Virus record (IMG/VR): IMGVR_UViG_3300014720_000002
Strand: one strand, 5' to 3'
Source of the DNA: a virus
DNA: 64,000 nt
Shown piece by piece: positions 3,473-56,433 of the stretch. Made by a program: the position numbers and the translations under genes. The number at the start of each line of letters is the position of its first letter. The stretch's first letter is position 1. A model generated the notes under the pieces. The model saw nothing but the letters and a program-made list of their open reading frames with translations, was not told the origin of the DNA and did not search any database.

Positions 3473-4132
3473 ATGCACCTGCAGTCGTTTGTTTATCGCA
3501 ATGTCCGGTTTCGCAGCAAGGTAATGGCCGAGATGGCCTGGTGGTTGGACCGGTTTGAACTGGGCTGGGCTTATGAGCCCGAAACTTTGGTTGATGGGCC
3601 GGTCTCGGTGACGCCCGACTTCTGGCTTCCCGACATCCAGACGCTGGTGTTTGTGCAGACCCGTGTGCTGCCCAGCGACCACTGGGAGGCCAGCATGCGC
3701 ATGGTGGGGACGCTTGGCCGTCGGACCGTGTTTCTGGAAATGGACCGGCACGTCGTTGGACCGATGGAGGACATCCCCGATCCAGCGCGCCTGGTGACCT
3801 GCCTCGACGGGTTGTTCAAAGTTGAACCAAACACGGACTGCACCTTCGCCGAGCCGGGTCAGGGTTGGTTCTGGCACAGCCGCTTTGCCCAGTCCGTTTC
3901 GCACATCAAGCAGTTGGCCAGCGGCGCGCATGTGCTGCTGATTCGATGCACCGTGTGCGGCGTGGTGCATTGGACGCATCGGGCGGGCGACATGCTCTGT
4001 CCCCGGTGTCAGTTGGGCAATTCCAGCAAACCTGAGCGCTGGCAGAAGCACATCATTCCCGCGCTGCATCTTCGGACGATGGCTGAGGTGCACCGGCTGG
4101 TTGAACAGGCCCGCAGTTTTTCCGGCGCGTGA
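3473..4132 (+). CDS. PD-(D/E)XK nuclease-like protein, catalytic motif possibly degenerate
   Basis: YRNVRFRSKVMAEMAWWLD...WAYEPE...TPDFWLPD matches the common phage RFRS...YEPE...PDFWLP pattern; FVQT sits where E-x-K is expected. Confidence 0.6.
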   Translation: MHLQSFVYRNVRFRSKVMAEMAWWLDRFELGWAYEPETLVDGPVSVTPDFWLPDIQTLVFVQTRVLPSDHWEASMRMVGTLGRRTVFLEMDRHVVGPMEDIPDPARLVTCLDGLFKVEPNTDCTFAEPGQGWFWHSRFAQSVSHIKQLASGAHVLLIRCTVCGVVHWTHRAGDMLCPRCQLGNSSKPERWQKHIIPALHLRTMAEVHRLVEQARSFSGA

Positions 4133-7100
4133 CGCCGGCGTTAGCCGAGCCAGCCGGTGGGAAGTGGTTTGCCCCACCGGCTGGCTTTCAGCGGCTCGAC
4201 AAACCGTCCGAGGTGGTGTGTCATGTGGACATGCCGACTGCAATCCAGACGCCCCGGCGGGCAGTGGTCCGTGGTAGCACGCTGACCGAGGCCGACGATA
4301 CCGACGTAGAGTTTGAACTGGACAGTCCTGATCAGTTCTTCGGCTCCCACATCGGCCTCATCCCATTGCGTTCCGCGGTGGCTGGTCCGCGGCTGTTCTA
4401 CGGTGCACGGTTCTACAACCAGGCTCTTCCTTTGCCGCAGGCTGAAGCTCCGCTCGTGCAGGCGCTGGCCGACAAGGATGAGCAGGGCCGTTCGTTCGAT
4501 GAGATTCTCGGCAAGGCGGCAGGCGCTAGGCTGGCCAAGGCTGACGGCGTGGTTCGGGACGTGACGCCTGACTGGATTGAACTGGAGCTTTCAGACGGCA
4601 AACGTGAGCAGGTCGAGCTTTACAACAAGCTGCCGTTCAACCGCAAGACCAGCCTGACCAATACCCCGGTGGTGAAGCCCGGCGATCAAGTGCGCTCAGG
4701 ACAGGTGCTGGCCAAGTCAAACTTCACGGATGCAGAAGGCCGGCTGGCGATGGGGTTGAACGCGCGCATTGGGCTGGTGCCCTACCTTGGCAAGTCCATG
4801 GATGATGCCGTGGTGGTGAGCGATGCGTTCGCACGCCGGCTTTCCAGCGAGCACCTCTACGGCTACGACCTGGACAACCGCAATGGCATCAAGTTCGGCA
4901 AGGCCCATTATGCCGGCATCTTCCCTGGACGTTTCATCAAGGACCAGTTGGAGAAGCTGGATGATGACGGGGTGGTGCGTCCTGGCATGCTGGTGCAGCC
5001 TGGCGATCCGCTCATCCTGGCTACCCGGCCTCGCGTAGTGTCCAGCACGTCCGCCCAGCTTGGTTTGCTCAGCAAGCACATGAAGAACGCGCGCACCAAT
5101 GCCGCTTTGCTGTGGGATCACGACGAACCAGGGACAGTGACCGATGTGGTCCGCCTGCCCGACGGTTCGGCCAAGGTCAACGTGCAAGTCATTGAGCCTA
5201 CGCGACTTGGCGATAAGATCGTAATGCGATCCGGGCAAAAAGGGATAATTTCCGAGATCCTCCCTGACGACCAGATGCCACGCACGGCTGACGGCCATCC
5301 GTTGGAGGTTCTGCTCAATCCGCTGGGCATCCCCTCGCGGGTGAACAACTCGCTGGTTTATGAGCTTCTGCTCGGCAAGGCGGCACGCAAGAGCGGCAAG
5401 CCGTTCAAGCTGCCGGCGTTCCTGCCGGAAGGTCAGCAGTGGGACAAGATCGTTGAGCAGCATTTGAAGGATGCTGGGCTGACTGACACTGAGGAGGTCT
5501 ATGACCCCAAGTTTGGGCGCAAGCTGGAGCGGCCGGTGACGGTGGGCGATGGTTACGTGCTCAAGCTTCATCACACGTCAGCATCTAAGATTTCTACTCG
5601 CGGACAAGGGAGCTACACTTGTTTTGATGATATTACTGAAGTGTGCACGCGTCGAGGCTGGGTGGCGTGGCCGGATGTAACAGCCGACGATGAGTTCGCG
5701 ACTGCAGATGACGGCAAGCTTGTGTTCAGTAGGGCCAGCCGTATCACAAAAGAGTTTTACTCTGGAGAATTGGTAGGGTTTGAGGGACGGTATTTGGATT
5801 GGCTTGTGACTCCGAACCATAACCTTTTGGTCAAGTTCAGAAAGCCATCTAGTCGATTGCGTATGGAGCGCGCTGATGCGCTGTTCGGTAGGTCGTTCTA
5901 CGTGCCTCAGTTTGGGTTTGCTGAGTTGCATGGTAGAAATCCTCGGCGTTTTGTTTTGTCCGGTCGCGTAATTAGAGACACTCTTGGTAGGGTGTATAAC
6001 ACTCCTGGGTTTGAGTGCGAGTTTGAAGACTTTGCTGATTTTGCGGGATGGTGGTTGTCCGAAGGCGAGGTTCGTTTGACTGAAGGCAGAGTTAAGTTAT
6101 ACCAGTCAGAGAAAGCCAATCCTGCAAAGTTCCAACAGATTGAGTCGCTTTTGAAGCGGCTAGGCGTGGCCTTCAACGCTATCCGAAGGAATGGGGTGGG
6201 TGTAGGATGGCAGTTCGCCAATAAATCATTGGCTTTTTTTCTGGCTAGTGAATTCGGGTCTGGTTCTGTCAATAAGAAGATACCAGAGTTTATGCTTTCG
6301 GCGGGTTTGTCGGCGCGTCGTAGAATGTATTCCAGCATGATGCTAGGCGACGGGACTGCCGATTCATCCGGTATGGATGTGTGCTACAACACCTGCTCCA
6401 AGAGACTGGCTGATGATTTTCAGCGGCTGTGCATTGGGCTTGGGTTTGGGTCAGTGATAAGTTATAGACCGGCTACTACTAGTAGTGCTATTAGAGGCAG
6501 AGTAGTTCATTCTGGACCTATATGGCGTTGTGGTGTCAGCCTTCGTAGGAAGTTTGCCTTGGTCGAGAATTACAGCAATCGACCCACAAGGCATTATCGC
6601 CAGCACTATGAGGGATTTGTTTATTGCGCTACTATTCCTGTAACCGGCTTGTTGCTAGTCCGCAGAAATGGTAAGCCTATGTGGTCTGGTAATTCAAACG
6701 AGCAACCCGCCCACGGCGGCGGCGAAACGGCTCAGGCCAAGCGGTTGTCTGGACTGGAGTCGCGCGCTTTGATCTCGTCGGGGGCCTACAACGTCCTGCG
6801 CGAAGGAGCTACGCTGCGGGGCCAGCGCAACGACGAGTATTGGCGTCAACTGCACATGGGCCTTCAACCCCGGGACCCAGGTCGTCCGTTCATGTTCTCG
6901 AAGTTCCTGGCCATGCTGTCCGGTGCCGGCTATCTGGCGCGCAAGCTGCCCAAGGACCGGTATCGGCTTCAGTTCATGACCGATCGTGATCTGGATGGGT
7001 TGAATCCAACGGAATTGTCCAACGGTGAGATAGTTGACATCGGCACGTTCGAGCCGGTAAAGGGCGGTCTGTTCGATCCGTCCATCACTGGCCGGCAAAG

Positions 7101-7296
7101 CTGGGGTGCCATCAGGCTGCCCCAGCCCATGCCGAATCCGGCAGCCGAGGATGTGATCAGAAAGCTGCTCGGGTTGACACAGAAAGAGTTTCGTTCGGTG
7201 CTGTCCGGCGAGATGGAGTTGCCGGTAGAGACGCTGCAGAGACTGAGACATGAACAACAAGGAGTTGGACGCGGCAGTGCTGGAAGCGGTGGATAA
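4129..7296 (+). CDS. rpoB: RNA polymerase beta subunit, C-terminal half (from about E. coli residue 660), with an intein, fused to the beta-prime N-terminal segment
   Basis: LIPLRSAVAGPRLFYGARFYNQALP (cf. [25 protein letters not shown]), GDKIVMRSGQKGIIS (GDKMAGRHGNKGVIS), NPLGIPSRVN, YVLKLHH, then GEIVDIGTFEPVKGGLFDPSITG...WGAIRL (beta-prime GEV...DGLF...IFG...MGHIEL). The exact start codon is uncertain. Confidence 0.92.
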   Translation: MTPALAEPAGGKWFAPPAGFQRLDKPSEVVCHVDMPTAIQTPRRAVVRGSTLTEADDTDVEFELDSPDQFFGSHIGLIPLRSAVAGPRLFYGARFYNQALPLPQAEAPLVQALADKDEQGRSFDEILGKAAGARLAKADGVVRDVTPDWIELELSDGKREQVELYNKLPFNRKTSLTNTPVVKPGDQVRSGQVLAKSNFTDAEGRLAMGLNARIGLVPYLGKSMDDAVVVSDAFARRLSSEHLYGYDLDNRNGIKFGKAHYAGIFPGRFIKDQLEKLDDDGVVRPGMLVQPGDPLILATRPRVVSSTSAQLGLLSKHMKNARTNAALLWDHDEPGTVTDVVRLPDGSAKVNVQVIEPTRLGDKIVMRSGQKGIISEILPDDQMPRTADGHPLEVLLNPLGIPSRVNNSLVYELLLGKAARKSGKPFKLPAFLPEGQQWDKIVEQHLKDAGLTDTEEVYDPKFGRKLERPVTVGDGYVLKLHHTSASKISTRGQGSYTCFDDITEVCTRRGWVAWPDVTADDEFATADDGKLVFSRASRITKEFYSGELVGFEGRYLDWLVTPNHNLLVKFRKPSSRLRMERADALFGRSFYVPQFGFAELHGRNPRRFVLSGRVIRDTLGRVYNTPGFECEFEDFADFAGWWLSEGEVRLTEGRVKLYQSEKANPAKFQQIESLLKRLGVAFNAIRRNGVGVGWQFANKSLAFFLASEFGSGSVNKKIPEFMLSAGLSARRRMYSSMMLGDGTADSSGMDVCYNTCSKRLADDFQRLCIGLGFGSVISYRPATTSSAIRGRVVHSGPIWRCGVSLRRKFALVENYSNRPTRHYRQHYEGFVYCATIPVTGLLLVRRNGKPMWSGNSNEQPAHGGGETAQAKRLSGLESRALISSGAYNVLREGATLRGQRNDEYWRQLHMGLQPRDPGRPFMFSKFLAMLSGAGYLARKLPKDRYRLQFMTDRDLDGLNPTELSNGEIVDIGTFEPVKGGLFDPSITGRQSWGAIRLPQPMPNPAAEDVIRKLLGLTQKEFRSVLSGEMELPVETLQRLRHEQQGVGRGSAGSGG
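5620..6693 (+). mobile_element. Intein with LAGLIDADG homing endonuclease (358 aa)
   Basis: Begins CFDDITEV, block B VTPNHNL, LAGLIDADG-like FAGWWLSEG and MMLGDG, ends VYCATIP...VRRNGKPMWSGN followed by Ser(+1). Clearly AT-richer than its flanks. Confidence 0.93.
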
Positions 7297-23530: not shown

Positions 23531-24391
23531 ATGATGAAAGAGAACAAGATGGTGATCGCGGTCACGTTGACCGCACCCCTGCTGGGCGGGCTGCCCTTCA
23601 GCGACATTGCGCAGGACCACCTGCGCGTCAAGACGGAGAAGGAGAACAAGAAGGACCTCTCCAACCTGGAGCCTCGCGTCGCGGAGGAACTGGCCGTCGC
23701 TGCTGCCCAGGCCGAGCAGCGCCGGTTGCAACTCCTGGCCGCTGGGCTGGACGCCGAAGAGGCGCGCGGCACCACCGGGTTTGCCCGTGACGACATGGGC
23801 TTGTTCGTGTGGGACTATTGGTTCCGTGGCTTCATCAAGGAAGCCCTGGAGACGGTGATCGAGTGCGGCTGTGCACCCGCCGGCTTCAACCCCTGGAACC
23901 GCAAGAAGAAGGTCGATCAGTTGATCTTCGTGGAGCCGCGGCGCATCTATCTGCGCAAGCCGTCAGCGGAGCGCACGGCGTCATCGTCCACGGTCTGGAC
24001 CGAATCCCCCGGTTTCAACACCCGGCCGATCCGGACGGAGGATCAGCGCACTGGCGCCCAGCGCACGGCCATCGCGCGCAGCGAGGAAGTGCCGGAAGGC
24101 ACCTGGTTCGTGGCCGAGTTGGTGTATCTTGGGCCGGAGGAGGTCAAGGTCAGCAAGAGCGGCAAGTCGCAACCGATCGTGACCAAGGAGTTGATCGCAG
24201 ACATCCTCACCTACGGCCGCCGAAAGGGTCTCGGTCAGTGGCGGTCTGGTGGCTGGGGCACGTTCGACTGGCAGGAGTTGCCGGACAACAAGCTGGTGAT
24301 CAAGGCGTCCCGTGGTGTCGCCTCCGTGCCCAAGCAGGGCATCCACATCGAATGCACTCCCGGCTGTCCCCAGCCGGCCGTTGCGGTCTAG
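23531..24391 (+). CDS. Orphan Cas7-like RAMP protein (candidate Vipr-type guide-RNA-binding effector)
   Basis: RAMP architecture: N-terminal IAVTLTAPLLGG, GTTGFARD..GLFVWDYWFRGFIKEA, DQLIFVEPRRI, RPIR...RTAIARSEEVPEGTWF, and a C-terminal glycine-rich loop YGRRKGLGQWRSGGWGTF. A/C-rich leader AAAACAAACAAACGGT before ATG 23531. Confidence 0.85.
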   Translation: MMKENKMVIAVTLTAPLLGGLPFSDIAQDHLRVKTEKENKKDLSNLEPRVAEELAVAAAQAEQRRLQLLAAGLDAEEARGTTGFARDDMGLFVWDYWFRGFIKEALETVIECGCAPAGFNPWNRKKKVDQLIFVEPRRIYLRKPSAERTASSSTVWTESPGFNTRPIRTEDQRTGAQRTAIARSEEVPEGTWFVAELVYLGPEEVKVSKSGKSQPIVTKELIADILTYGRRKGLGQWRSGGWGTFDWQELPDNKLVIKASRGVASVPKQGIHIECTPGCPQPAVAV

Positions 24392-24442: not shown

Positions 24443-25192
24443 TCTGCTAGTCTGAGCACATGCAAAACGACATTGGTCTCCCTACTGTAGTCCTGGCTGT
24501 GCTGGTGGTGGTCCAACTCTTGTGGATTGTCCGGCAGACGGACTTCGGCAAGCTGGTCAAGCGCAGCAATCAACTGCCCAAGTTCGGCGCCAACCCGGAC
24601 TATCATTGGGTGCAGATTCGGCGTGAGGGCGGCGCGGCCTGGCTGGCGCTGACTGACGTGGAACTCGACACTGCCATCAAACGGGCCGAGGCCAACGACG
24701 AAGATCGACCATGACCAAACAACAGGCCGCGCGCGTGCGGCAACTGATCCGGGCCTTGCGCTCGGGCAAATTCAAGCAGTGCCGAAACCGGCTTCGCTCT
24801 GTGAGGGGTGACCGGTTTTGTGCTTCTGGGGTGGCTTGCGAGCTTTATTCCCGGAACATGAAAGGCACGGACGGAGTCTGGCAGATGTCGGAGGATGGTG
24901 ATGAGCAGGAGTTTCAATCTGGGCCACAGTCGAACTGCCAGACGCTGCCGTATCTGGTGCGGCAGTGGTTAGGCTTCCCCGATGACACCCAGGCTTTCAT
25001 CGGGGCTGCGTTCGTGCATGAGTGGAATCTGGATCCGAATCTTGATGTGGAACGGGTTGGCTTGGAGTTGCTGAACGATGGCGTTCGACAGAGTGCTGGA
25101 TTTTCCAAAAGTCACCGCGGCATGAACTTCAAGCAGATCGCCTGTGTGCTGGAGCGCTGGCTTCGCCACCAGCCCATTTCGGACTGACTCCT

Positions 25193-37533: not shown

Positions 37534-37955
37534 GGTGATGGCGAGGCAGCGGCAGGTTCTGTTGCTCATTGGTAAGGTCCGTTAATGTCCGGCGCTGTGG
37601 AGTAAAGTGACGGTGAGGCTGGGCTGGGTCACGCATGGTGTTGGTATCGTCCCGATAGGTTACGTTCAGCAAGGTAGCGTGAAGGTGCAGCGCCGGTATG
37701 TCGGCGCCTGGTTTGATCTGGTCTTGCGCAGGTGGTGATCCGTAGCGTCAGGTGAAGTTTCGTCCGGGTGTGGCTCGTCAATGTCGCGCACTGTTCAGCG
37801 AAGGCACTGTGGATCTGGGCCTCGTTCTGTGGCGGTGTTGTGTTGTCCCGTGAGGTTTCGTATTGGTGCGGTAATGCACGCCTCGGCGCAGTGCCGGCAG
37901 GCTACGGTTAGGCCGGGCAATACAAGGCAACGCTTAGCAAAGGTTCAGCAACGCA
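37534..37955 (+). repeat. Degenerate NGY-NN pentamer array A (candidate VIPR-like guide RNA array)
   Basis: 81 pentamers from 37540, 69 exactly NGY. Units of 31,41,31,41,11,36,36,36,31,31,31,46 nt each start with GGY. Fills the gap from a stop codon (37536-38) to the next ATG (37956). Confidence 0.85.
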
Positions 37956-40900
37956 ATGAGCATATTCAATCCCAACGCACTCCCAGACCGGTCACCGATG
38001 GCCGCCATCCGGCCTGAGCACTGGCCGGAAACGCTGGCCGAGTTGTCCTGCCATGACGTGGTCGTGAACTCGGTGCTGCAGGCCAGCGGCCCGCATTATG
38101 CAAACCTGTCGGAGCAGGAATCACTGCGGCTGATGGTGGTGCTGATGGCGCAGCGGCATCAGCATGTGCTGGCGGAAGCCATAACGCAGGAATTCAAACG
38201 TGCTCCGCAGCCAATCGTGCTACCCCACAAACGAGATGATCAGAAAGTTCGGTGAAGGACTCAGCACCCGGCGCGAGACGCACGAGGAACTGGGCGGCGG
38301 CTACGGACCAGACAAGCACAAACCGCTGGTGGCGGAGTTCATCGCCAACGACCAGGTGCAGATCTGGCCCAAGCGTTCCAGCCGCAAAGTGCAGATCGGC
38401 CTGCTGGATCTCTACGCCATTATCGTGCGCAAGAACGCCAACCTGGCCACCCTGGAGAAGGCGCGGGATCGGAAAGCTAAAAAGGAGAGCCAGCGAAAGG
38501 CGCGGCAGATTGCCGCCGCGGATCGACGGCTGCGCAAGGCGGCCAAAACAAACCTATGTTGAGTGAACAAGAGCGGCTGTGCTACCGGTCGCTGAAGGAA
38601 GGCGAAATCATCCAGCATGGTGATTTGGAGCTTGGTGGCGGTGAGCACGACCACTGGACGCCCGTCCTTCATCGGATCGGAAGCCCAGCCCCAGCGCCGG
38701 AATATCCGGCCCACAGCAAGTTCCTGCGACGCATCCTGTGCGCCTGGAAAGCCGACGATGACGGTGTCCTGCATGCCGCCTGCGGACAGGCGTATTGCTT
38801 CGAGCACGAGTTCACCGTTGGTGGTGCCTACCAGTTCTGCCCAGGATGTGGAAAACCCATTCGCCTATGCCCACCAACCTTGATCCCGGAAAGCGAGAGT
38901 TGAAGCGCACCCAGCGCACCAAGCCATGCCACGACTGCCCGTTTGCCAAGCACACGGCACCTGGTGCGTTGGGCGGTTCCACCCCTGAGGTGTATATGGG
39001 GCAGATCCAGGGTCCGTTCTGGCTGCCCTGTCACAACAGCAGCGGCTACGAGGAAAGCCGACGCGACCCGGGACATGAGCAGTGCGCGGGTGCTGCCATC
39101 TTCCGGGCTAATACGGGGCTGGAGCAGTTGATGCCTTCGGCCTTGCTGCATCTGCCTGCGGATGACAGCCAGGTGTTCCGAGGACCGGTGGAGTTCCTGC
39201 AGCACCATCTGGGCTTTACGCCGGAGCAGGTGCTGGCCTGGTTTCGCGCCAACCCGCCACAGAAGCTGCTGCAGGACGAGCTTGCCAAACAGGAAGCACA
39301 GGTGATGTTGCTGCCCAAGAAACCATGAGCGACCTCAAAACCTACGGCAAAGGCACCCGGGTCATGTGCGACCACCATTTCAGCGGCAAGCCGCGCGGCG
39401 TGGTGGTGGCCGTGCTGGAGCCTGGGCGGGGTAGCAGTGCCACGGAAGGCCGGATTCAGGTTCGGCTGACTGAGACGGTTGGGCCTTGGAAGAAAGGCGA
39501 GCTTCGGGAACTGCCGGCCTGGCTGGCGGTGCCACTGGCTCAGCTTCGTCCGCCGCGCGCTGGCGAGTTTTTCACCCGCGTCCTCACCGACTATCAATGG
39601 GCATGAAACAACTGAGCGACCTACAGCCGGAGCCATCCGTGGTGGATGCCAAGGTGGATGAGGTGCTCATGCCTGGCCAACTGAGCCAGGCGGAAGTGAA
39701 GCAGGCCGCCGACAAGGCGGGTCGTGACAAGCTGCGCGTCCAGGGTGCGGCGATACGGATGATTTTCAGTGGCCTTGGTCCGACGAACGACTGGTTTTCT
39801 CATTATGACTGACCGAAAGTTTTACTACCGGGAGTTTCTCATCCGGGTTGTCTCACCTGAGCCGGTGGATTCCATTGATGCGCTGCAGCGGGTGCTGAAC
39901 GATGAGCAGATGGGTGTCTGGTGCTCGCGCGAGCCTCAGCCCGCCCGTATGCTGGACGGCAAACAGACGGCTGACGAATTGAAGCAGATGGGGGCCACGC
40001 CACCGCTCTTCGACCTCGACGACGCCGGCAACGATCTCGATCCGGACGAGTGAACACCATTTTCGATGTTTATCGCCATGGCGCCAACCTCGGTTGGTCG
40101 GCTGACCAGGTGGTGACGGAGGTGCAGCGGCGGTTTAAGGCTGGCACCAAGCTGGGCGCCAACCATCTGCGCAAGCAGTATGCCGACACGGTGATGATGG
40201 ACCGGATCCAACTGCTGGCCATGTGCAAGGACCTGCGGGCCGTGTTGCACAGCTTCAGCCCGGACGGTCGTCCGCATGTGCCGTCGCTGGAAGATCCAGC
40301 CTGGCCGATGGTGCCGGCGGCGCTGCAGTCCAGCGCGGAACTGATTCAGAAACTAACCCCGACCGAAAATGAGTGATCCGATTGAGCATGCCGTGGCCGG
40401 ACTGTTACAGAAGGCCATCGACGAAGGCACCAAGGAAGCGACCCATGCTGCGGTGGAGATGATGTCGGCGGCCTGTGGTTACCTGCTGCCCCGGGTTTCT
40501 TCCGTGGACGTGAACTTGAAGAACGGGCATGCGCGCATCGAGTTTCATTCTCCATGGCGGTCGCTCAACCGCAAGCCGTTGCCGAAGACGCAGCAGCGGG
40601 TGGCTTTACTGAAGGTGCGGCTTGCCCTGACCAGGTATTTCCGGCTGTTCCCACAGTCTGCCGTGCCTCCGATCTCGGTGGTCAACTGCCCGACCTGTAT
40701 CGGCCGAGCGCCCATCAAATGTGCGGAAATGGCCTGGCAGGAGTGGCGTCAGCGGTGCACCAAGGTGGTGCAGGACGCCATCGACCAGAAGGGCTGGGTG
40801 GCTGGCTCGCTGGATGTGGACAAGGCCCATGGGCGGCGGGTGGAGATTCACGGCTATCTGATCGACGCCAAGACCGCCAAGCCGGTGAGCGCCGTCGAAT

Positions 40901-49030: not shown

Positions 49031-49376
49031 CGGTATTGGAACGCTTAGCCGCGTGCCGCCATGCCTAGCACAGGCTACGTGCGGTCCGGTCAGGTCTCGT
49101 AATGGTAAAGTGACGCAAAGTCGGGCTTCGTCGAGCGATGGCCGGGTGTGGTCAAGCAGGGTGTGGTGGTTCAAAGTTAAGGTGTCGCGTCGCCTAGTCA
49201 GGTCACGCGCCGGCAATGGATGGTGCCGTCCGGTTTAGCAGCGCAGCGGCATAGTGACGAAAAGGCCTGTAACGTGAAGCACAGGTAAGGTGCCGTGAGG
49301 CATGGTGAGGTCTGGCACAGGTAAAGCAGAGTCACGCGGGGTCCGGTTCAGGCGAGGATAGGTGGAGTCACGCAGC
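49021..49376 (+). repeat. Degenerate NGY-NN pentamer array B (candidate VIPR-like guide RNA array)
   Basis: 69 pentamers, 68 with central G, 63 exactly NGY. Units of 11,41,31,36,41,31,36,36,36,31,26 nt, all starting with GGY. Ends directly at ATG 49377. Confidence 0.9.
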
Positions 49377-50708
49377 ATGCAGATTCGATTGAAAGAACGC
49401 TGGCAGGCGTGGGTGGAGGTGTGGACCGCCATCCGCGCCTGCCATGCCGGCAGGAACGAGAAGCTGGAGGTGCGGCGCACCGGACAGGTCTGGGACGTCG
49501 GTGCCAGACAGTATCGCGAGCGGCTGGAGTTCCGGGCCGCCGACAACCCCGGCTGGGAAGGCTACAACCGCTCCCGGAACCTGCTGGCGACGAAGGTGCC
49601 GCGCCTGTCCAAGGCGCTGGAAAAGTTGAAGTGGATATGAGCAAGAAGACGATGACCCTGGTGGTCGAGATCGAGTATGATGGGTTGGAAGGACCGTTCC
49701 GACCTGCCCTGGTGAACAAGCTCAAGGACCGGCTGCACGCCATGGTTGAGCGCGAGGCTGGCGAGGGCGGGCTGTCGCCGGACGATGGCAGTGTGGCCGT
49801 GGCAAGCTGGGACGCCCGGGTGGCTGATGGGCCGCTCACGCTGCTGAACCCGGCGCAGGTGCGCGATCTCAGCAAGCTGCTGGATTACACTGAGGCGGAT
49901 GAAGAGCGACACTACGAGGAGAGCAAACCCTGCCGCAACCACATCTGGCATTCGATTCGCCGGCTGAGGAAAGCTACACCCGAACCATGAACCTTTACTC
50001 ATTCGGAGCCGCGGCCAGGGAAGGCGCCTGCCGAGCAACCTGGGACCCTAAGCACAGCAACTTCGTGATGCACATCTGGCAGAAGGGTAAGCCGACGCCC
50101 ATCGCCACCTGCCGGGATACCACGCAGGAGAAGTGCGAGGCGGCGGCGCGGCAGGTCAAGGAGGCGCTGGAGCTTCAGGCGCGGCTGGAGTCGCCGGAGT
50201 TCAGCGCCGCGCTTAGGCTTGCCCTGGAGGGCACGCTGACTACCCGGCTGCGTTCGGTGCACGGGCTGGACCCGTTCTCACGGAAGCGCACCAAGCGCGC
50301 GGCTGAGTTGGAAGTCGAGTTCTTGGTTGGCGCCATGAGCGCCATCAACGCGACGTTTCCTGGGCGTGACTCCGAACTCAGCAGCAAGGTGCCGGTTTAT
50401 TGGCCCATGTGCCTTATGAGTGGGCGCTCGGTGCTGCAGTCCGCGAAGAAGTCATGAAGCCACTATATTACTACGTCCTCATCGACAGTGAAACCTTGGC
50501 GCGGTTGCAAGCACGGGTTGCCACCAGGTTCCGATTCCACGGGCGCATCCAGGTATTTCGGATCGAGCGCAACCAGGTGATCAAGGCAGAGAGTCTCTGC
50601 ATCCAGTGCCCAGACCAGTTGTCCGCTGAAGTGCGGGATGATCTGCTCAGCTTTGTGGCTGGTTTCGTTGAGGGGGCCGACCTGCAGTCATCGACCGCCC
50701 ACCTGGGT

Positions 50709-52312: not shown

Positions 52313-53404
52313 ACTATGAGTAAGTCGGAGAAGCTGAGAAAATTGGCCAACGCCGTTCGGCGTTACCGCGGCCTGCTTGGATCGCCTGGGCATGACGGCG
52401 TGGTCCGGTGGAAGCAGCCACCCATACCTTCAGCCAAGGACGATGTCCGGCGCTGGCTGGGCAGGCTGGGCCTGGATGTGGAAGCGCATCTGCGGCGTGT
52501 GGACGAGTTTCCTTCGCTGCAGCAGTTCGCGGAATGGCTGGAAGAGTTGGAGAATGGCAATGAGCACGTTGTGGCAGGAACTTCGGAAGTGGGAAAATCA
52601 TGAAAAGAAACTGGCTGATCAGGCATTACCAGGCGGCGCTGGTGTTCGCGAGCCGGACCCGCAATCGCCCCCTGTCCGACTACGTTCGACAGGAGTTGAA
52701 AAGGTGGTCGGCGGCACCGTCCTCTGGAAGCCGGTCGATCGCCTAGCGGCTAAGATGCTGGCCAAGTCGCCCTGGTGGGCGCAGCCAGTGCATGTGCCGA
52801 CACCGCCACCAGCGGCGCCGGCTGCAGTTGAGAAGGCAAAAAAGAAGAGAACACACAAGATTATGGGAGACAACGCTGTCATTGTGGAGACAGGAGACAA
52901 GCGTGCGCCACAGGATGTCCGTCCGCGGATGAACGACGCGAGCTACACGAGCGCATGCGGGCTGGAGGTGCACCGGATCAACGGGCAGGACATGATTTCG
53001 CTGGAGAGTGCGCAGACTGTCCTCTGTGCCGAGATTGCGAAAATGCCCAAGGAGACGCGACCGCTGGTTTTGGCCGCCCAGGACGCCCGACGGATCGTTA
53101 ATGAGTTGACGGACGGCATTGGCGCCGATCAGGAAAAGTTCAGGGTCAGTGCCAAGATGTTCCTGGAGGATGTCCGCCAGACCCGGTTTGCGGTGGTGCA
53201 GGAGGCCAGCGCAATGATGACGCCATTGCGCGATGTCCGCACTTTCTTCCTGGGGCCGGATTACAAGGAGCAGGTGACCAGGTTGAAGGAGTTCGTGGAA
53301 CTTTGCGAGCGGCTGCAGAAGCTCAAGGAGTCGGGTTTCCTGGATAACGTCGCGGACACCATGCTGCGACTGGCAGATCGGCCAGCCACCGGCGCCTGAT
53401 TGAA

Positions 53405-53486
53405 TGCGCTGTGGTGCTTGGAAAGGTCTCGTGCGGTCGCGTTAAGTCACGGTCCAGTGAGGGCGTGGCAAAGTCCTGCGCGGAAC
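53405..53486 (+). repeat. Short NGY-NN pentamer array D
   Basis: 16 pentamers, all with central G, 14 NGY; two 6-nt phase steps at 53451 and 53462, each followed by GGY. Starts 6 nt after the stop at 53399. Confidence 0.7.
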
Positions 53487-53529
53487 CGCACCAGTTGGGC
53501 TTCGGCCCGCTGGTGCGGTTTCCTTTAGC
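53484..53529 (+). terminator. Nested hairpin (11-bp outer stem plus GGGC-UUCG-GCCC) followed by CCTTTAGC; closes array D
   Basis: AACCGCACCAG / CTGGTGCGGTT is a perfect stem. Confidence 0.7.
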
Positions 53530-54730: not shown

Positions 54731-55208
54731 AGTGCGCATGCACTGGCGCCGAGGTCATCTGCACACAGTGAAGTTCGGCAAGGGTCGGGAGAGTTCCCGG
54801 CTGGACTGGTTCGAGCCGATATTGGTCAATGCGCCGGAAGGAAAGGAGGTGAACGTATGAGCGAAAAGAGTGAGCAAGTGCTGCGGGACGCCATCGAAAA
54901 ACATGTTGGCGCACTACTTCACGCAGAGTTGCAACGGGACGAACTGCATGTCTATCTGTCCTGGGACAAAGCTAGTGGAAAAGTCACGGTTAATTGCTTC
55001 TCGACCTTGGCGCTGAACCTTCTCGATCGATCGCATAAGACCACCGTCGGCGGCTTGGACGAGTTGATCGACAGCGTGTTGGAGGGCTGCGACCGAAAGC
55101 AGGCCAAGGTTTGTCTGGACCAGATACAGGCAAGCTTGGACAAGGCTCGTGCTGGCTGGCAGAAAGTATGCGCTGAGTGGGATCGGGAACATCGACCTGC
55201 GAATCGCA

Positions 55209-55593
55209 GGTAAAGCAAAGGTGAGGCGAGGTGTAGCATCGTTGCGTGCGGTTCAGGTGTAGTGCCGTGAAGATGGGTAATGTAAAGCGCCGGCGAGGTG
55301 ATGCTTGGTGTGGTGGCATCGCGTTTGGAACAGTATTGGAGACGCGGCGCACAGCATGGTAGCGCAATGTGGTGGCGTCGTATCGAGGCGCTGAGTATTG
55401 GCCTGGCACGGCGGCGGTGGGCACCGTAAAGCTACGGCATGGTCACGTCAGGTTCAGTGCAGCACAGGTAACGCGACGCAAGGTTCGGTTTCGTGCTGTC
55501 ACGTATCGGTTTGGGTGGGTCGAGCGCTGGGCTGTCAGGCAAAGGCGAGGCGGGGTCTGGTCCGGTTTCGTTACGTCGTGCGCTGTGCCGACG
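55209..55593 (+). repeat. Degenerate NGY-NN pentamer array C (candidate VIPR-like guide RNA array)
   Basis: 75 pentamers, 74 with central G, 66 NGY. Units of 11,36,36,46,36,26,36,31,41,36 nt plus a final ~50-nt unit. The upstream TAA (55211-13) is embedded in the first pentamer. Confidence 0.9.
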
Positions 55594-55639
55594 AACACCA
55601 GTTGGGGCGCAAGCCCTGGCTGGTGTTCGTCCTTTAGCT
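55591..55639 (+). terminator. Nested hairpin (11-bp outer stem plus GGGC-GCAA-GCCC) followed by CCTTTAGCT; closes array C
   Basis: ACGAACACCAG / CTGGTGTTCGT is a perfect stem; same architecture as 53484. Confidence 0.7.
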
Positions 55640-55644
55640 ATCAG

Positions 55645-55683
55645 TTGAAACTCCCGCCGGATTGCGGCACGCTCCGCCTGATG
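55645..55683 (+). promoter_or_regulatory. Class II leaderless-type promoter TTGAAA-N17-CACGCT-N7-ATG
   Basis: Spacing identical to 62252-62290. Confidence 0.6.
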
Positions 55684-56433
55684 TCTGAGCCCCGTGTCAC
55701 CGCCATCGTCGTCAACTGGCGCCGTCCCGACAACGTCCAGCGGATTCTCCGCGCACTGCGCCAGTCGTCGGCGCGCTGCCACATCATCGTCTGCGATGTC
55801 CGGGTGGATGAGACCTATCGGAAGGACACCTTCTTTGAAGGCGCCGACGAGGTTCTCCACCTGTCCCGCAACCACGGCGGTTTCAACCGGCTGGTGCCCG
55901 CCATGCTTGTGCAGACCGAGTTCACCTACTTCCATGACGATGACCTGCTGCCCGGACCCGAGGCGCTCGCCGCCCTGATGCGTTGCGCTGACGGCATGCT
56001 GGGCATGGGCGTGCTTGGCCAGATCGGACGGGTCTATCCAGACGGGCAGTTCGGGACGGATGATGTGCTGCGCGATGAGCACGTCTGCGTGCCGGTGGAC
56101 AACGTCATCCGCGGCGCGCTCGTCCGCTCGGCACTGCTGCCCGGCGTCATGCACTTCTGGCATCGCCACGGGCGCAACTTCATCACGCCGGAGGGGTTGG
56201 TGCATGATGACCTGATGCTGAGCTTCGCGCTCCGCTCCGCCGGGCACATCAACCGGCTCACGCCCGCTGACCACCGCAACGACACCATGATCAACAGCGA
56301 GGAGTTGCCGGACCAGTATGCACTCAGCCGCCGGCCCCAGCACCGACCCGAGCGCGCCGCCATTGTGGCATGGTTCAATCAGCAGTTTCCCGGCCGGCTC
56401 ACCCCGCTGCTGCCGGCGGTCCATGTTGTATGA
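55681..56433 (+). CDS. GT-A glycosyltransferase (GT2/GT64-like)
   Basis: VTAIVVNWRRPDNV...HIIVCD...TEFTYFHDDDLLP...HDDLMLS. Confidence 0.8.
   Translation: MSEPRVTAIVVNWRRPDNVQRILRALRQSSARCHIIVCDVRVDETYRKDTFFEGADEVLHLSRNHGGFNRLVPAMLVQTEFTYFHDDDLLPGPEALAALMRCADGMLGMGVLGQIGRVYPDGQFGTDDVLRDEHVCVPVDNVIRGALVRSALLPGVMHFWHRHGRNFITPEGLVHDDLMLSFALRSAGHINRLTPADHRNDTMINSEELPDQYALSRRPQHRPERAAIVAWFNQQFPGRLTPLLPAVHVV

What the first reader, a model, noticed from the sequence alone, without database searches (positions are those of the whole stretch)
55209..55639. Array C: nine complete units plus a long terminal run, capped by a GNRA nested hairpin at the end of the accessory block
Seen: 74 of 75 triplets have the central G, for example ggt aa|cgc ga|cgc aa|ggt tc|ggt tt|cgt gc|tgt ca|cgt atc (55467). 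The last ten pentamers run without a slip into the hairpin at 55591. The array lies exactly at the boundary between the small-gene region and the large-gene region.
Basis: seen in the sequence. Interest (0 to 1): 0.85.

Follow-up and report, generated by a model that had tools for sequence, protein, structure and literature searches.

The report
Phage VIPR staggered guide-RNA array
This 430-base non-coding stretch of a 168-kb phage genome is an array of about ten short guide RNAs for the phage's own Cas7-like (Vipr) protein, so it is a new example of the CRISPR-related VIPR systems first described in 2026, not a new kind of element.

Summary
From 55220 to 55593, 72 of 73 five-base steps carry G at the same position (score 52.5 against 7.8 ± 2.0 in shuffles). 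The tract splits into ten units of 5n+1 bases, each opening with GGY. It runs into a 19-bp GCAA hairpin at 55590-55631.

The same grammar occurs in only three other places in the 167,647-bp genome, all on the + strand and all intergenic.

The phage encodes one Cas7/Csm3-fold protein (23531-24391). Its family has 505 relatives in IMG/VR, and 78 of 81 fetched loci carry the same "+1-slipped" NG(Y)-NN arrays, usually directly after the gene. None of 54 control loci does.

This matches the published VIPR systems (bioRxiv 10.64898/2026.04.26.720920), specifically their "staggered" vrRNA arrays and YNNNG repeat variant.

A related phage (about 80% identical flanks) has arrays at the same two sites with the same hairpin but no shared guide.

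The overlapping ORF from 55369 is not a gene extension.

No target was found, and expression could not be tested.

This scan has already reported VIPR-like arrays in more than 260 other genomes. Verdict: a new member of a known kind, of modest interest.

The parts
55209..55219 (+). Two-pentamer fragment (ggtaa agcaa a) that overlaps the TAA stop of the upstream ORF. It is the 5' edge of the array.
Evidence: Read directly from the sequence.
55220..55593 (+). Array C: ten staggered vrRNA-like units (C1-C10) of NGY-NN pentamers. Each unit is 5n+1 nt and opens with GGY. Unit starts are 55220, 55256, 55292, 55338, 55374, 55400, 55436, 55467, 55508 and 55544.
   Evidence: 72 of 73 anchors are G, more than 20 sd above shuffles. 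Position 3 is Y in 86% of pentamers. Positions 4 and 5 have near-uniform composition.
55590..55631 (+). Terminal hairpin: a 19-bp stem with a GCAA tetraloop. It overlaps the last pentamer of C10. It is most likely a terminator or a 3'-end protecting structure.
   Evidence: dG -36.9, z -6.8; against the relative L175 there are 2 compensatory and 2 one-sided changes, and no pair is broken.
55632..55642 (+). Conserved CCTTTAGCTATC tail after the hairpin.
   Evidence: TTTAGC[CT]A[TC]C occurs only twice in the 167.6-kb genome, both times after an array hairpin. It is conserved in L175.
53405..53495 (+). Array M: a small fourth array with units of 9, 2 and 6 pentamers. It runs into the same kind of hairpin.
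   Evidence: score 15 against 4.6 ± 1.2 in shuffles, with 21 of 21 anchors G.
53482..53522 (+). Hairpin capping array M, with a UUCG loop, followed by CCTTTAGCCATC.
   Evidence: dG -34.3, z -6.3.
49032..49376 (+). Array B: nine units between a stop codon and the ATG at 49377.
   Evidence: 64 of 65 anchors are G.
37540..37955 (+). Array A: thirteen units between the stop at 37538 and the ATG at 37956.
   Evidence: 74 of 79 anchors are G.
23531..24391 (+). vipr gene: a 286-aa Cas7/Csm3-fold RAMP with the C-terminal G-loop KGLGQWRSGGWGTF. It is the only member of its family in the genome.
   Evidence: pLDDT 77. (Foldseek E 1e-8 to type VII Cas7 and Csm3). (Z up to 11.7). (G-loop aligns to SUSP1 Vipr). 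(single hit in the genome).
24460..25187 (+). Two genes of 84 aa and 158 aa that follow vipr in all close relatives. They are candidate accessory (vap-like) genes, untested.
   Evidence: The order vipr, then an ~85-aa gene, then a DUF8296 gene is seen in L001, L195, L196 and the P0005 contigs. My own Pfam scan gave no hit.
55681..56433 (+). Downstream glycosyltransferase-like gene. Its true start is the ATG at 55681, not the GTG at 55369.
   Evidence: Glyco_tranf_2_3, E 7.7e-6. (homologues of 247-250 aa).
54857..55213 (+). Upstream 118-aa ORF of unknown function. Its stop codon abuts the array.

Best explanation
Array C is one of four dispersed 'staggered' vrRNA arrays of a VIPR system carried by this 168-kb phage.

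The + strand is transcribed. Each unit has the form G-(Y-NNN-G)n, with n = 5-10. Neighbouring units share the GG junction, and this produces the apparent +1 slip.

Protomers of the phage's Cas7-like Vipr protein (23531-24391) polymerise on the RNA, one per 5-nt repeat. They hold the invariant G and the pyrimidine and present the variable bases for pairing with foreign double-stranded DNA, most likely to silence competing mobile elements. The register break at each GG junction delimits separate filaments, and so separate guides.

The 19-bp GCAA hairpin plus CCUUUAGC ends the transcript or protects its 3' end.

What is shown here: the periodic grammar, its restriction to four intergenic + strand sites, the RAMP fold, the family-wide link between this RAMP and such arrays, the conservation of the hairpin with covariation, and the complete replacement of guides in a relative.

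What is inferred from the VIPR papers and not shown here: transcription, processing, filament formation, DNA binding, and the identity of the targets.
For: (1) Periodicity: 72 of 73 anchors are G, score 52.5 against 7.8 ± 2.0. Only base G and only period 5 score.

(2) Logo over 237 pentamers: position 2 is G in 96-100%, position 3 is Y in 86%, and positions 4 and 5 are near-uniform. Position 1 is G in 31 of 35 unit-initial pentamers but matches background elsewhere. This is the published YNNNG variant with 1-nt overlapping 'staggered' units (fig. S18 legend).

(3) A genome-wide scan finds four arrays, all on the + strand and all exactly filling intergenic gaps, and none on the - strand.

(4) The Vipr candidate gives an AF2 model with pLDDT 77. 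Foldseek top hits are type VII Cas7 and Csm3 at E 1e-8. With VIA-align, 44 of the top 50 hits are CRISPR RAMPs, Z up to 11.7. Its G-loop GQWR aligns with GDWR of SUSP1 Vipr, PDB 36pp. W178 and R179 there contact G2 and Y3, and D177 contacts G1.

(5) 505 relatives of this protein were found in IMG/VR. 78 of 81 fetched loci have arrays with the same slip grammar on the vipr strand, mostly starting at the vipr stop. 0 of 54 unrelated viral loci do.

(6) The relative L175 has arrays at the same two slots with the same hairpin. BLASTN identity (76-80%) begins exactly at each hairpin, and no guide is shared beyond chance.

(7) There is no above-chance self-match in the phage's own genome under any rule.

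(8) SUSP1 vrRNAs, used as a positive control, are recovered by the same scanner.
Against: - No RNA evidence.
- No target was found in IMG/VR, JGI metagenomes or GTDB genomes.
- The arrays lie 14-32 kb from vipr, whereas in relatives they abut it.
- Units are shorter (5-10 repeats) than characterised vrRNAs (9-16) and have no per-guide 3' tail.
- Sequence similarity to published Vipr is weak: E 0.72 against the PDB, and 1e-3 within the SUSP1 proteome.
- Staggered arrays have not been confirmed experimentally in the papers read.
Confidence: 0.85

Rival explanations
1. The arrays are 'solo' or decoy vrRNAs. They are not mainly guides for the phage's own Vipr. Instead they load onto, and misdirect or titrate, the Vipr proteins of competing phages, as shown for satellite-encoded solo vrRNAs of SUSP1 satellites.
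For: All four arrays are detached from vipr by 14-32 kb, unlike 78 of 81 relatives. Solo vrRNAs that redirect a rival's VIPR are documented in bioRxiv 10.64898/2026.10.15.759431. No natural target was found for any guide.
Against: The genome does encode a cognate Vipr whose family uses exactly this grammar. The relative L175 keeps arrays at the same detached slots, and its phage also carries vipr (P0003, from the same sequencing runs). Detachment is therefore a stable lineage trait, not a sign of orphan status.
Confidence: 0.07
2. The tract is a binding platform or sponge for some other multimeric RNA- or ssDNA-binding protein with a 5-nt footprint (TRAP-like or nucleocapsid-like). It is unrelated to the RAMP gene.
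For: A G every 5 nt resembles the spaced triplets that wrap ring proteins such as TRAP (background knowledge). The arrays are not adjacent to the RAMP gene in this genome.
Against: The triplets are NGY, not (G/U)AG. The same grammar sits directly after the RAMP gene in 78 of 81 relatives and in 0 of 54 controls. A sponge would not need positions 4 and 5 to be hypervariable, nor every unit to be unique.
Confidence: 0.04
3. The stretch is protein-coding: either the N-terminal extension of the glycosyltransferase from GTG 55369, or one of the overlapping small ORFs.
For: Open reading frames do cover it: 55369-56433, 55398-55637 and 55298-55429.
Against: Homologues of the glycosyltransferase are 247-250 aa and start at the ATG at 55681. 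The extension has no Pfam match. The signal has period 5, with no period-3 signal. The region has no similarity to the relative, while the flanking genes are 76-80% identical.
Confidence: 0.01

Closest known systems
VIPR systems with 'staggered' vrRNA arrays and YNNNG-type repeats (bioRxiv 10.64898/2026.04.26.720920, fig. S18 and Methods 'VIPR type classification')
   Same: - It is phage-encoded, with a single minimal Cas7-like RAMP.
- The repeat is 5 nt with an invariant G and a pyrimidine, and the other positions are hypervariable.
- Units abut with a 1-nt overlap (the GG junction), so each is 5n+1 nt.
- There are no CRISPR repeats and no cas1/cas2.
- There are no self-targets.
   Different: - The arrays are split over four intergenic sites 14-32 kb downstream of vipr, not flanking it.
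- Two of the four arrays end in a conserved 19-bp hairpin plus CCUUUAGC.
- I could not see the paper's figures or tables, so I cannot say which of the seven types this is, or whether this phage is among the 667 listed loci.
Type II VIPR of Escherichia phage SUSP1 and the Pseudomonas fulva prophage (same preprint; structures in 10.64898/2026.04.26.720927; PDB 36pp)
   Same: - RAMP fold with a G-loop. W and R of the D-W-R triad that grips G2 and Y3 are conserved (GQWR here).
- One protomer per 5-nt repeat is the likely binding mode.
- The likely role is silencing of rival mobile elements.
   Different: - SUSP1 vrRNAs are separate ~100-nt RNAs of 9-16 GGY-NN repeats, each with an invariant pseudoknotted 3' tail. 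Here units have 5-10 repeats, no individual tail, and G1 is required only in the first repeat.
- The G1-contacting Asp is Gln here.
- The 1-nt-skip (NNx) rule is demonstrated only for type II. Whether it holds here is untested.
Class 1 CRISPR crRNA-Cas7 backbone (type III Csm3/Cmr4, type VII Cas7)
   Same: These are the best structural matches of the protein (Foldseek E 1e-8; Z 10-12). Both involve periodic protein binding along a guide, with flipped bases.
   Different: - The period is 5 nt, not 6 nt.
- There are no repeat-spacer units, no Cas6-type handle, and no Cas5, Cas8, Cas10 or Cas1-2.
- The guide is interrupted at every repeat.
TRAP-binding sites of the Bacillus trp leader
   Same: Spaced triplets about 5 nt apart on an RNA.
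   Different: TRAP needs about 11 (G/U)AG triplets. Here the triplets are NGY, there are about 240 of them in 35 unique units, and they are linked to a RAMP family.

Membership tests
VIPR system | A Vipr protein is encoded in the same element: a minimal RAMP with an RRM core, a glycine-rich loop and a thumb. | tested here: met
   The ORF at 23531-24391 gives an AF2 model with pLDDT 77. Foldseek top hits are type VII Cas7 and Csm3 at E 1e-8, probability 1.0. VIA-align Z is up to 11.7, and 44 of the top 50 hits are CRISPR RAMPs. It has an invariant G-loop GLGQWRSGGxGxF.
VIPR system | Sequence homology of the RAMP to a published Vipr (SUSP1 Vipr, PDB 36pp). | tested here: inconclusive
   The profile hit is limited to the G-loop: E 0.72 against the PDB and E 1e-3 within the SUSP1 proteome, where it is the top ORF. 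The Foldseek PDB copy predates the Vipr entries, so no direct structural comparison was possible.
VIPR system | Tandem 5-nt repeats with a conserved G(G)Y motif alternating with hypervariable bases. | tested here: met
   G2 in 96-100%, Y3 in 86%, N4 and N5 near-uniform. G1 is fixed only in the first repeat of each unit, which is the YNNNG variant named in the paper's Methods.
VIPR system | Staggered array architecture: successive vrRNAs overlap by 1 nt. | tested here: met
   All 31 internal junctions in the four arrays are steps of 6. 31 of 35 units open with GG, so the first G is in register with the previous unit and the second with the next. The same holds in 78 relatives.
VIPR system | vrRNA genes lie in the intergenic regions flanking vipr. 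| tested here: not met
   In this genome the nearest array is 14 kb downstream, and there is none within ±10 kb of vipr (for L001). The feature is met in most of the 78 relatives with arrays. Detached 'solo' vrRNAs are also documented, so this does not exclude membership.
VIPR system | An invariant structured 3' tail on each vrRNA. | tested here: not met
   There is no per-unit tail. Only arrays M and C end in a conserved hairpin. The tail is described for type II, and staggered arrays are drawn without one.
VIPR system | Guides match foreign mobile elements under the 1-nt-skip rule and do not match the element itself. | tested here: inconclusive
   No self-match above shuffled controls. No convincing foreign target in 8 IMG/VR, 2 JGI and 2 GTDB scans or in 1.76 Mb of fetched loci. 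Only exact matches of a few guides could be searched.
VIPR system | vrRNAs are expressed as small RNAs and co-purify with Vipr. | not testable with these tools
No RNA data were available.
VIPR system | An accessory vap gene next to vipr. | tested here: inconclusive
   An ~85-aa gene and a DUF8296 gene follow vipr in all close relatives. They have no assigned function, and my Pfam scan was blank.
CRISPR array | Identical direct repeats of 20-40 nt separating unique spacers, with cas1/cas2 nearby. | tested here: not met
   Tandem Repeats Finder reports nothing in any of the four arrays. No unit is repeated. No CRISPR family was found in Rfam.
TRAP-type RNA target | About 11 (G/U)AG triplets separated by 2-3 nt. 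| tested here: not met
   The triplets are NGY. Position 3 is G in 7% of the 237 pentamers (16 of 237), and position 1 is variable.

The most novel reading that the evidence does not exclude
In this staggered YNNNG subtype the base before each G (N1) may be read as well. Each protomer would then pair three contiguous bases, and a unit G-(Y-NNN-G)n would specify an unbroken 15-30-nt target instead of the published gapped NNx code.

Short guides of 5-10 repeats would need this. Under NNx with the published 80% threshold, the average guide of six or more repeats has a best match of about 81% somewhere in the phage's own genome.

The arrays would also be fast-turnover cassettes inserted at fixed genomic slots by an unknown, Cas1-independent route for acquiring guides.
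Probability: 0.3. Interest if true: 0.6.

Novelty: new member of a known kind. Interest (0 to 1): 0.33.

Why it matters
It adds a clear, well-delimited example of the least-studied VIPR architecture, in a large RNAP-encoding phage. Staggered arrays were reported without experimental confirmation.

It carries 35 unique guides in four detached arrays. Two conserved genomic slots have entirely different guide content in a relative that is about 80% identical. This gives a natural system for two open questions:
- How are staggered arrays transcribed, terminated and cut into guides?
- How are new guides acquired without Cas1-Cas2?

It also exposes a specificity problem. Guides of 5-7 repeats carry only 10-14 specified bases under the published rule.

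None of this changes the picture of what VIPR is.

Tried and rejected
- **Rfam, tRNA and tandem-repeat scans of the window:** nothing at the arrays.
- **Protein-coding reading of 55369-55680:** rejected.
- **Close relatives in GenBank phages:** none by blastn.
- **The tail motif CACCAGTTGGG...CTGGTG in IMG/VR:** 54 hits, all chance. None has an array or a TTTAG tail.
- **An exact 39-mer from the glycosyltransferase start in JGI metagenomes:** 0 hits.
- **Target searches with exact NNx patterns:**
  - C10, A7, C3 and M1 in IMG/VR: 0 hits.
  - C8 in IMG/VR: 32 hits that collapse into a few AT-rich families (a small protein with a MazG-like motif by eye, and a 204-226-aa protein) unrelated to a 61% GC phage, with no convergence of other guides.
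  - First nine repeats of C10 in JGI metagenomes: 14 scattered hits, wobble concordance at most 6 of 9.
  - A7 in GTDB genomes: 0 hits.
- **The contiguous 20-mer of B8 in GTDB genomes:** 12 hits in unrelated genes.
- **Our guides against 1.76 Mb of fetched viral loci, and 339 family guides all-against-all under four rules:** no excess over shuffled guides, so the reading rule could not be settled.
- **Cross-targeting between this phage and its relative:** none.
- **Codon-usage association of N1 with N4N5:** weak (z 1.7, p 0.04).
- **Substitution rates in 29 near-identical unit pairs:** G2 is conserved and the junction base is the most variable, but N1 cannot be told apart from N4/N5.
- **Family-wide enrichment of hairpins after arrays:** not significant by MFE, although many arrays do end in terminator-like stems.
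- **A second RAMP-like ORF at genome position 164473:** hhalign probability only 8%.
- **Single-sequence AF2 of Vipr:** useless, pLDDT 33.

Full report
**Observation**

The window is all-plus-strand, 61% GC phage DNA. It lies in a single 167,647-bp contig.

The stretch 55214-55680 lies between the stop of a 118-aa ORF and the ATG of a glycosyltransferase-like gene. I parsed it with a dynamic-programming scan that takes steps of 5 bases and penalises steps of 6.

- The parse finds 73 anchors from 55221 to 55590, and 72 of them are G.
- The score is 52.5, against 7.8 ± 2.0 (maximum 16) in 500 dinucleotide-preserving shuffles.
- A, C and T score 3-7, and periods 3, 4, 6 and 7 score 5-7.

The tract falls into ten units of 7, 7, 9, 7, 5, 7, 6, 8, 7 and 10 pentamers. 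Each unit is 5n+1 nt long and opens with GGY.

The last unit runs into a hairpin. This hairpin is one uninterrupted 19-bp stem (55590-55631) with a GCAA loop, dG -36.9 kcal/mol and z -6.8. It is not a nested structure.

**The grammar**

I pooled 237 pentamers from the four arrays of this genome.

| Position | Composition |
|---|---|
| 1 | G in 31 of 35 unit-initial pentamers; otherwise matches genome background |
| 2 | G in 96-100% |
| 3 | pyrimidine in 86% |
| 4 and 5 | close to 25% for each base |

Each junction is a GG. The first G is in register with the preceding unit and the second with the following unit. A unit is therefore best written G-(Y-NNN-G)n, with neighbours sharing one G.

**Where else it occurs**

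A scan of both strands of the whole genome finds exactly four such tracts:

- A: 37540-37955
- B: 49032-49376
- M: 53405-53495
- C: 55220-55593

All four are on the + strand and each fills an intergenic gap exactly. In 0.87 Mb of unrelated viral DNA the best score is 15.5, against 45-57 for arrays A, B and C.

**The protein partner**

The ORF at 23531-24391 has no Pfam match but does have homologues. Folded with their alignment, it gives pLDDT 77.

- Foldseek's top hits are type VII Cas7 and type III Csm3, at E 1e-8 and probability 1.0.
- In an independent all-against-representatives search, 44 of the top 50 chains are CRISPR RAMPs, with Z up to 11.7.
- The family has an invariant C-terminal loop GLGQWRSGGxGxF.
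- A profile of the family picks the SUSP1 Vipr ORF as the best hit in the SUSP1 proteome. It aligns GQWR to that protein's GDWR.

In the SUSP1 structure, D177 reads G1, W178 stacks on G2 and R179 helps hold Y3. W and R are kept here, while the Asp is Gln. This fits an array in which G2 and Y3 are fixed but G1 is not. That link is an inference.

It is the only member of the family in the genome.

**Association of protein and array**

IMG/VR holds 505 relatives of this protein.

- Of 81 fetched loci, 78 carry arrays with the same slip grammar on the vipr strand, usually beginning at the vipr stop. Units are modally 5-6 pentamers and open with GG in 88%.
- None of 54 control loci does.
- The same scanner recovers the bona fide vrRNAs of SUSP1 as unslipped runs of 13-19 GGY-NN repeats.

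**What is known**

VIPR systems were described in 2026. They consist of a minimal phage-encoded RAMP (Vipr) that polymerises one protomer per 5-nt repeat on vrRNAs of alternating GGY/NN. They recognise dsDNA through the NN bases, with one target base skipped per repeat, and they silence rival mobile elements.

The first paper also reports 'staggered arrays with overlapping vrRNAs', derived from positions that overlap by 1 nt. Its text says only that the hammerhead-interspersed and single-vrRNA architectures were confirmed by sRNA-seq. It also reports alternative repeats NNNGG, YNNNG and NNNNG. Array C fits the staggered architecture and the YNNNG repeat.

A later paper documents detached 'solo' vrRNAs. 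This scan has already flagged VIPR-like arrays in more than 260 genomes.

**Comparative evidence at this very site**

Homologues of the downstream glycosyltransferase are 247-250 aa long, so the GTG-55369 extension is not conserved.

One homologue (81% aa identity) lies on Logan contigs L175-L177, which come from the same runs as an 86%-identical Vipr.

- L175 has arrays at the two corresponding slots: 944-1233 before the MYG1-like gene and 3584-4110 before the glycosyltransferase. Each ends in the same hairpin and TTTAGC tail.
- BLASTN identity of 76-80% begins exactly at the hairpins (window 53484 and 55582). There is no alignment inside the arrays.
- The longest shared run of NN dinucleotides is 4, the same as in shuffles.
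- Between the two C-slot hairpins, all six substitutions preserve pairing: two are compensatory and two are G-C to G-U.
- The M-slot hairpins use a UUCG loop instead of GCAA.

The scaffold and the cap are therefore under selection, while the guide content has turned over completely.

**Mechanism**

I take the arrays to be transcribed from the + strand and coated by Vipr in 5-nt register, with each GG junction breaking the register and so separating guides.

The hairpin most likely terminates transcription or blocks 3' exonucleases. It is not a universal VIPR handle:

- Arrays A and B lack it.
- Family-wide enrichment of structure after arrays was not significant, although many arrays end in terminator-like stems.

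**Targets and reading rule: unresolved**

No guide matches the phage's own genome above shuffled controls. I found no convincing foreign target. Exact-pattern scans of IMG/VR, JGI metagenomes and GTDB genomes gave either nothing or scattered hits explainable by chance and codon bias.

Local all-against-all tests lacked power.

Under the published NNx rule with an 80% threshold, the average guide of six or more repeats has a best match of about 81% somewhere in the phage's own genome. Guides this short must therefore either need near-perfect pairing or read the N1 base as well.

- N1 shows only a weak codon-like association with N4N5 (p 0.04).
- An earlier unchecked note of this scan (e1-5666125) proposed contiguous NNN reading for another jumbo phage. 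I could not test it.

**Verdict**

This is a new member of a known kind.

Its particular features are four detached arrays, a conserved array-terminal hairpin, and total guide replacement at fixed slots. These features are useful for follow-up but not surprising to a specialist who has read the 2026 preprints.

Noticed in passing
window 53405-53527: A fourth, small array (17 pentamers) sits between the 52377-53399 ORF and the MYG1-like gene. It ends in a hairpin of the same family as the one after array C (UUCG loop) plus CCTTTAGCCATC. The motif TTTAGC[CT]A[TC]C occurs only at these two places in the genome.
   Followed up: yes
L175:2521-3582 versus window 54732-55213: In the relative, a 353-aa gene with a precomputed AcrVA2-like Pfam hit (PF26125) lies between the MYG1-like gene and the C-slot array. 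In the window only a 107-nt remnant (54732-54838, 90% identical) remains, and an unrelated 118-aa ORF takes its place. My own Pfam scan of the L175 protein gave no hit.
   Followed up: partly
window 24460-25187: An ~85-aa gene and a 158-163-aa DUF8296 gene follow vipr in every close relative (L001, L195, L196, and the P0005 contigs). They are candidates for accessory (vap-like) genes.
   Followed up: partly
hhalign against the Vipr family aligns the analogous G-loop region, but with probability of only 8%, and there is no PDB sequence hit. Whether it is a second RAMP is open.
   Followed up: partly
L001 (JGI 3300013131 contig Ga0172373_10001622) versus window 13531-34391: A 36-kb metagenome contig is 99.94% identical to the window. 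By extrapolation it ends near window 37318, about 220 nt before array A. This may reflect strain heterogeneity in the array breaking the assembly.
   Followed up: no
window 23531-24391 (protein residues ~26-80 and 258-286): This clade's Vipr has a ~25-residue helical insertion (KKDLSNLEP...RRLQLLAAG) and a ~40-residue low-confidence C-terminal extension. Both are absent from the other family members.
   Followed up: no
L175:3733-3800 and 3943-4020: The relative's C-slot array contains an internal duplication of about one and a half units (5 identical NN in a row) that has since diverged. This suggests duplication and divergence as one route of array growth.
   Followed up: partly
window 49285-49319 (guide B8): Read as N4-N5-N1 triplets, B8 spells AAG GCC GAG ATG GAG CTG ACA, all codons that are common in GC-rich genomes. 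9 of 12 exact 20-mer hits in GTDB genomes lie in frame in long ORFs (KAEMELT), but of unrelated genes.
   Followed up: yes
window 4129-7296: A large RNA polymerase beta-like ORF. Its best phage matches (31-34% identity) are Salmonella phage Arash and Vibrio phages of about 180-187 kb. There is no close cultured relative, and the host is unknown.
   Followed up: no
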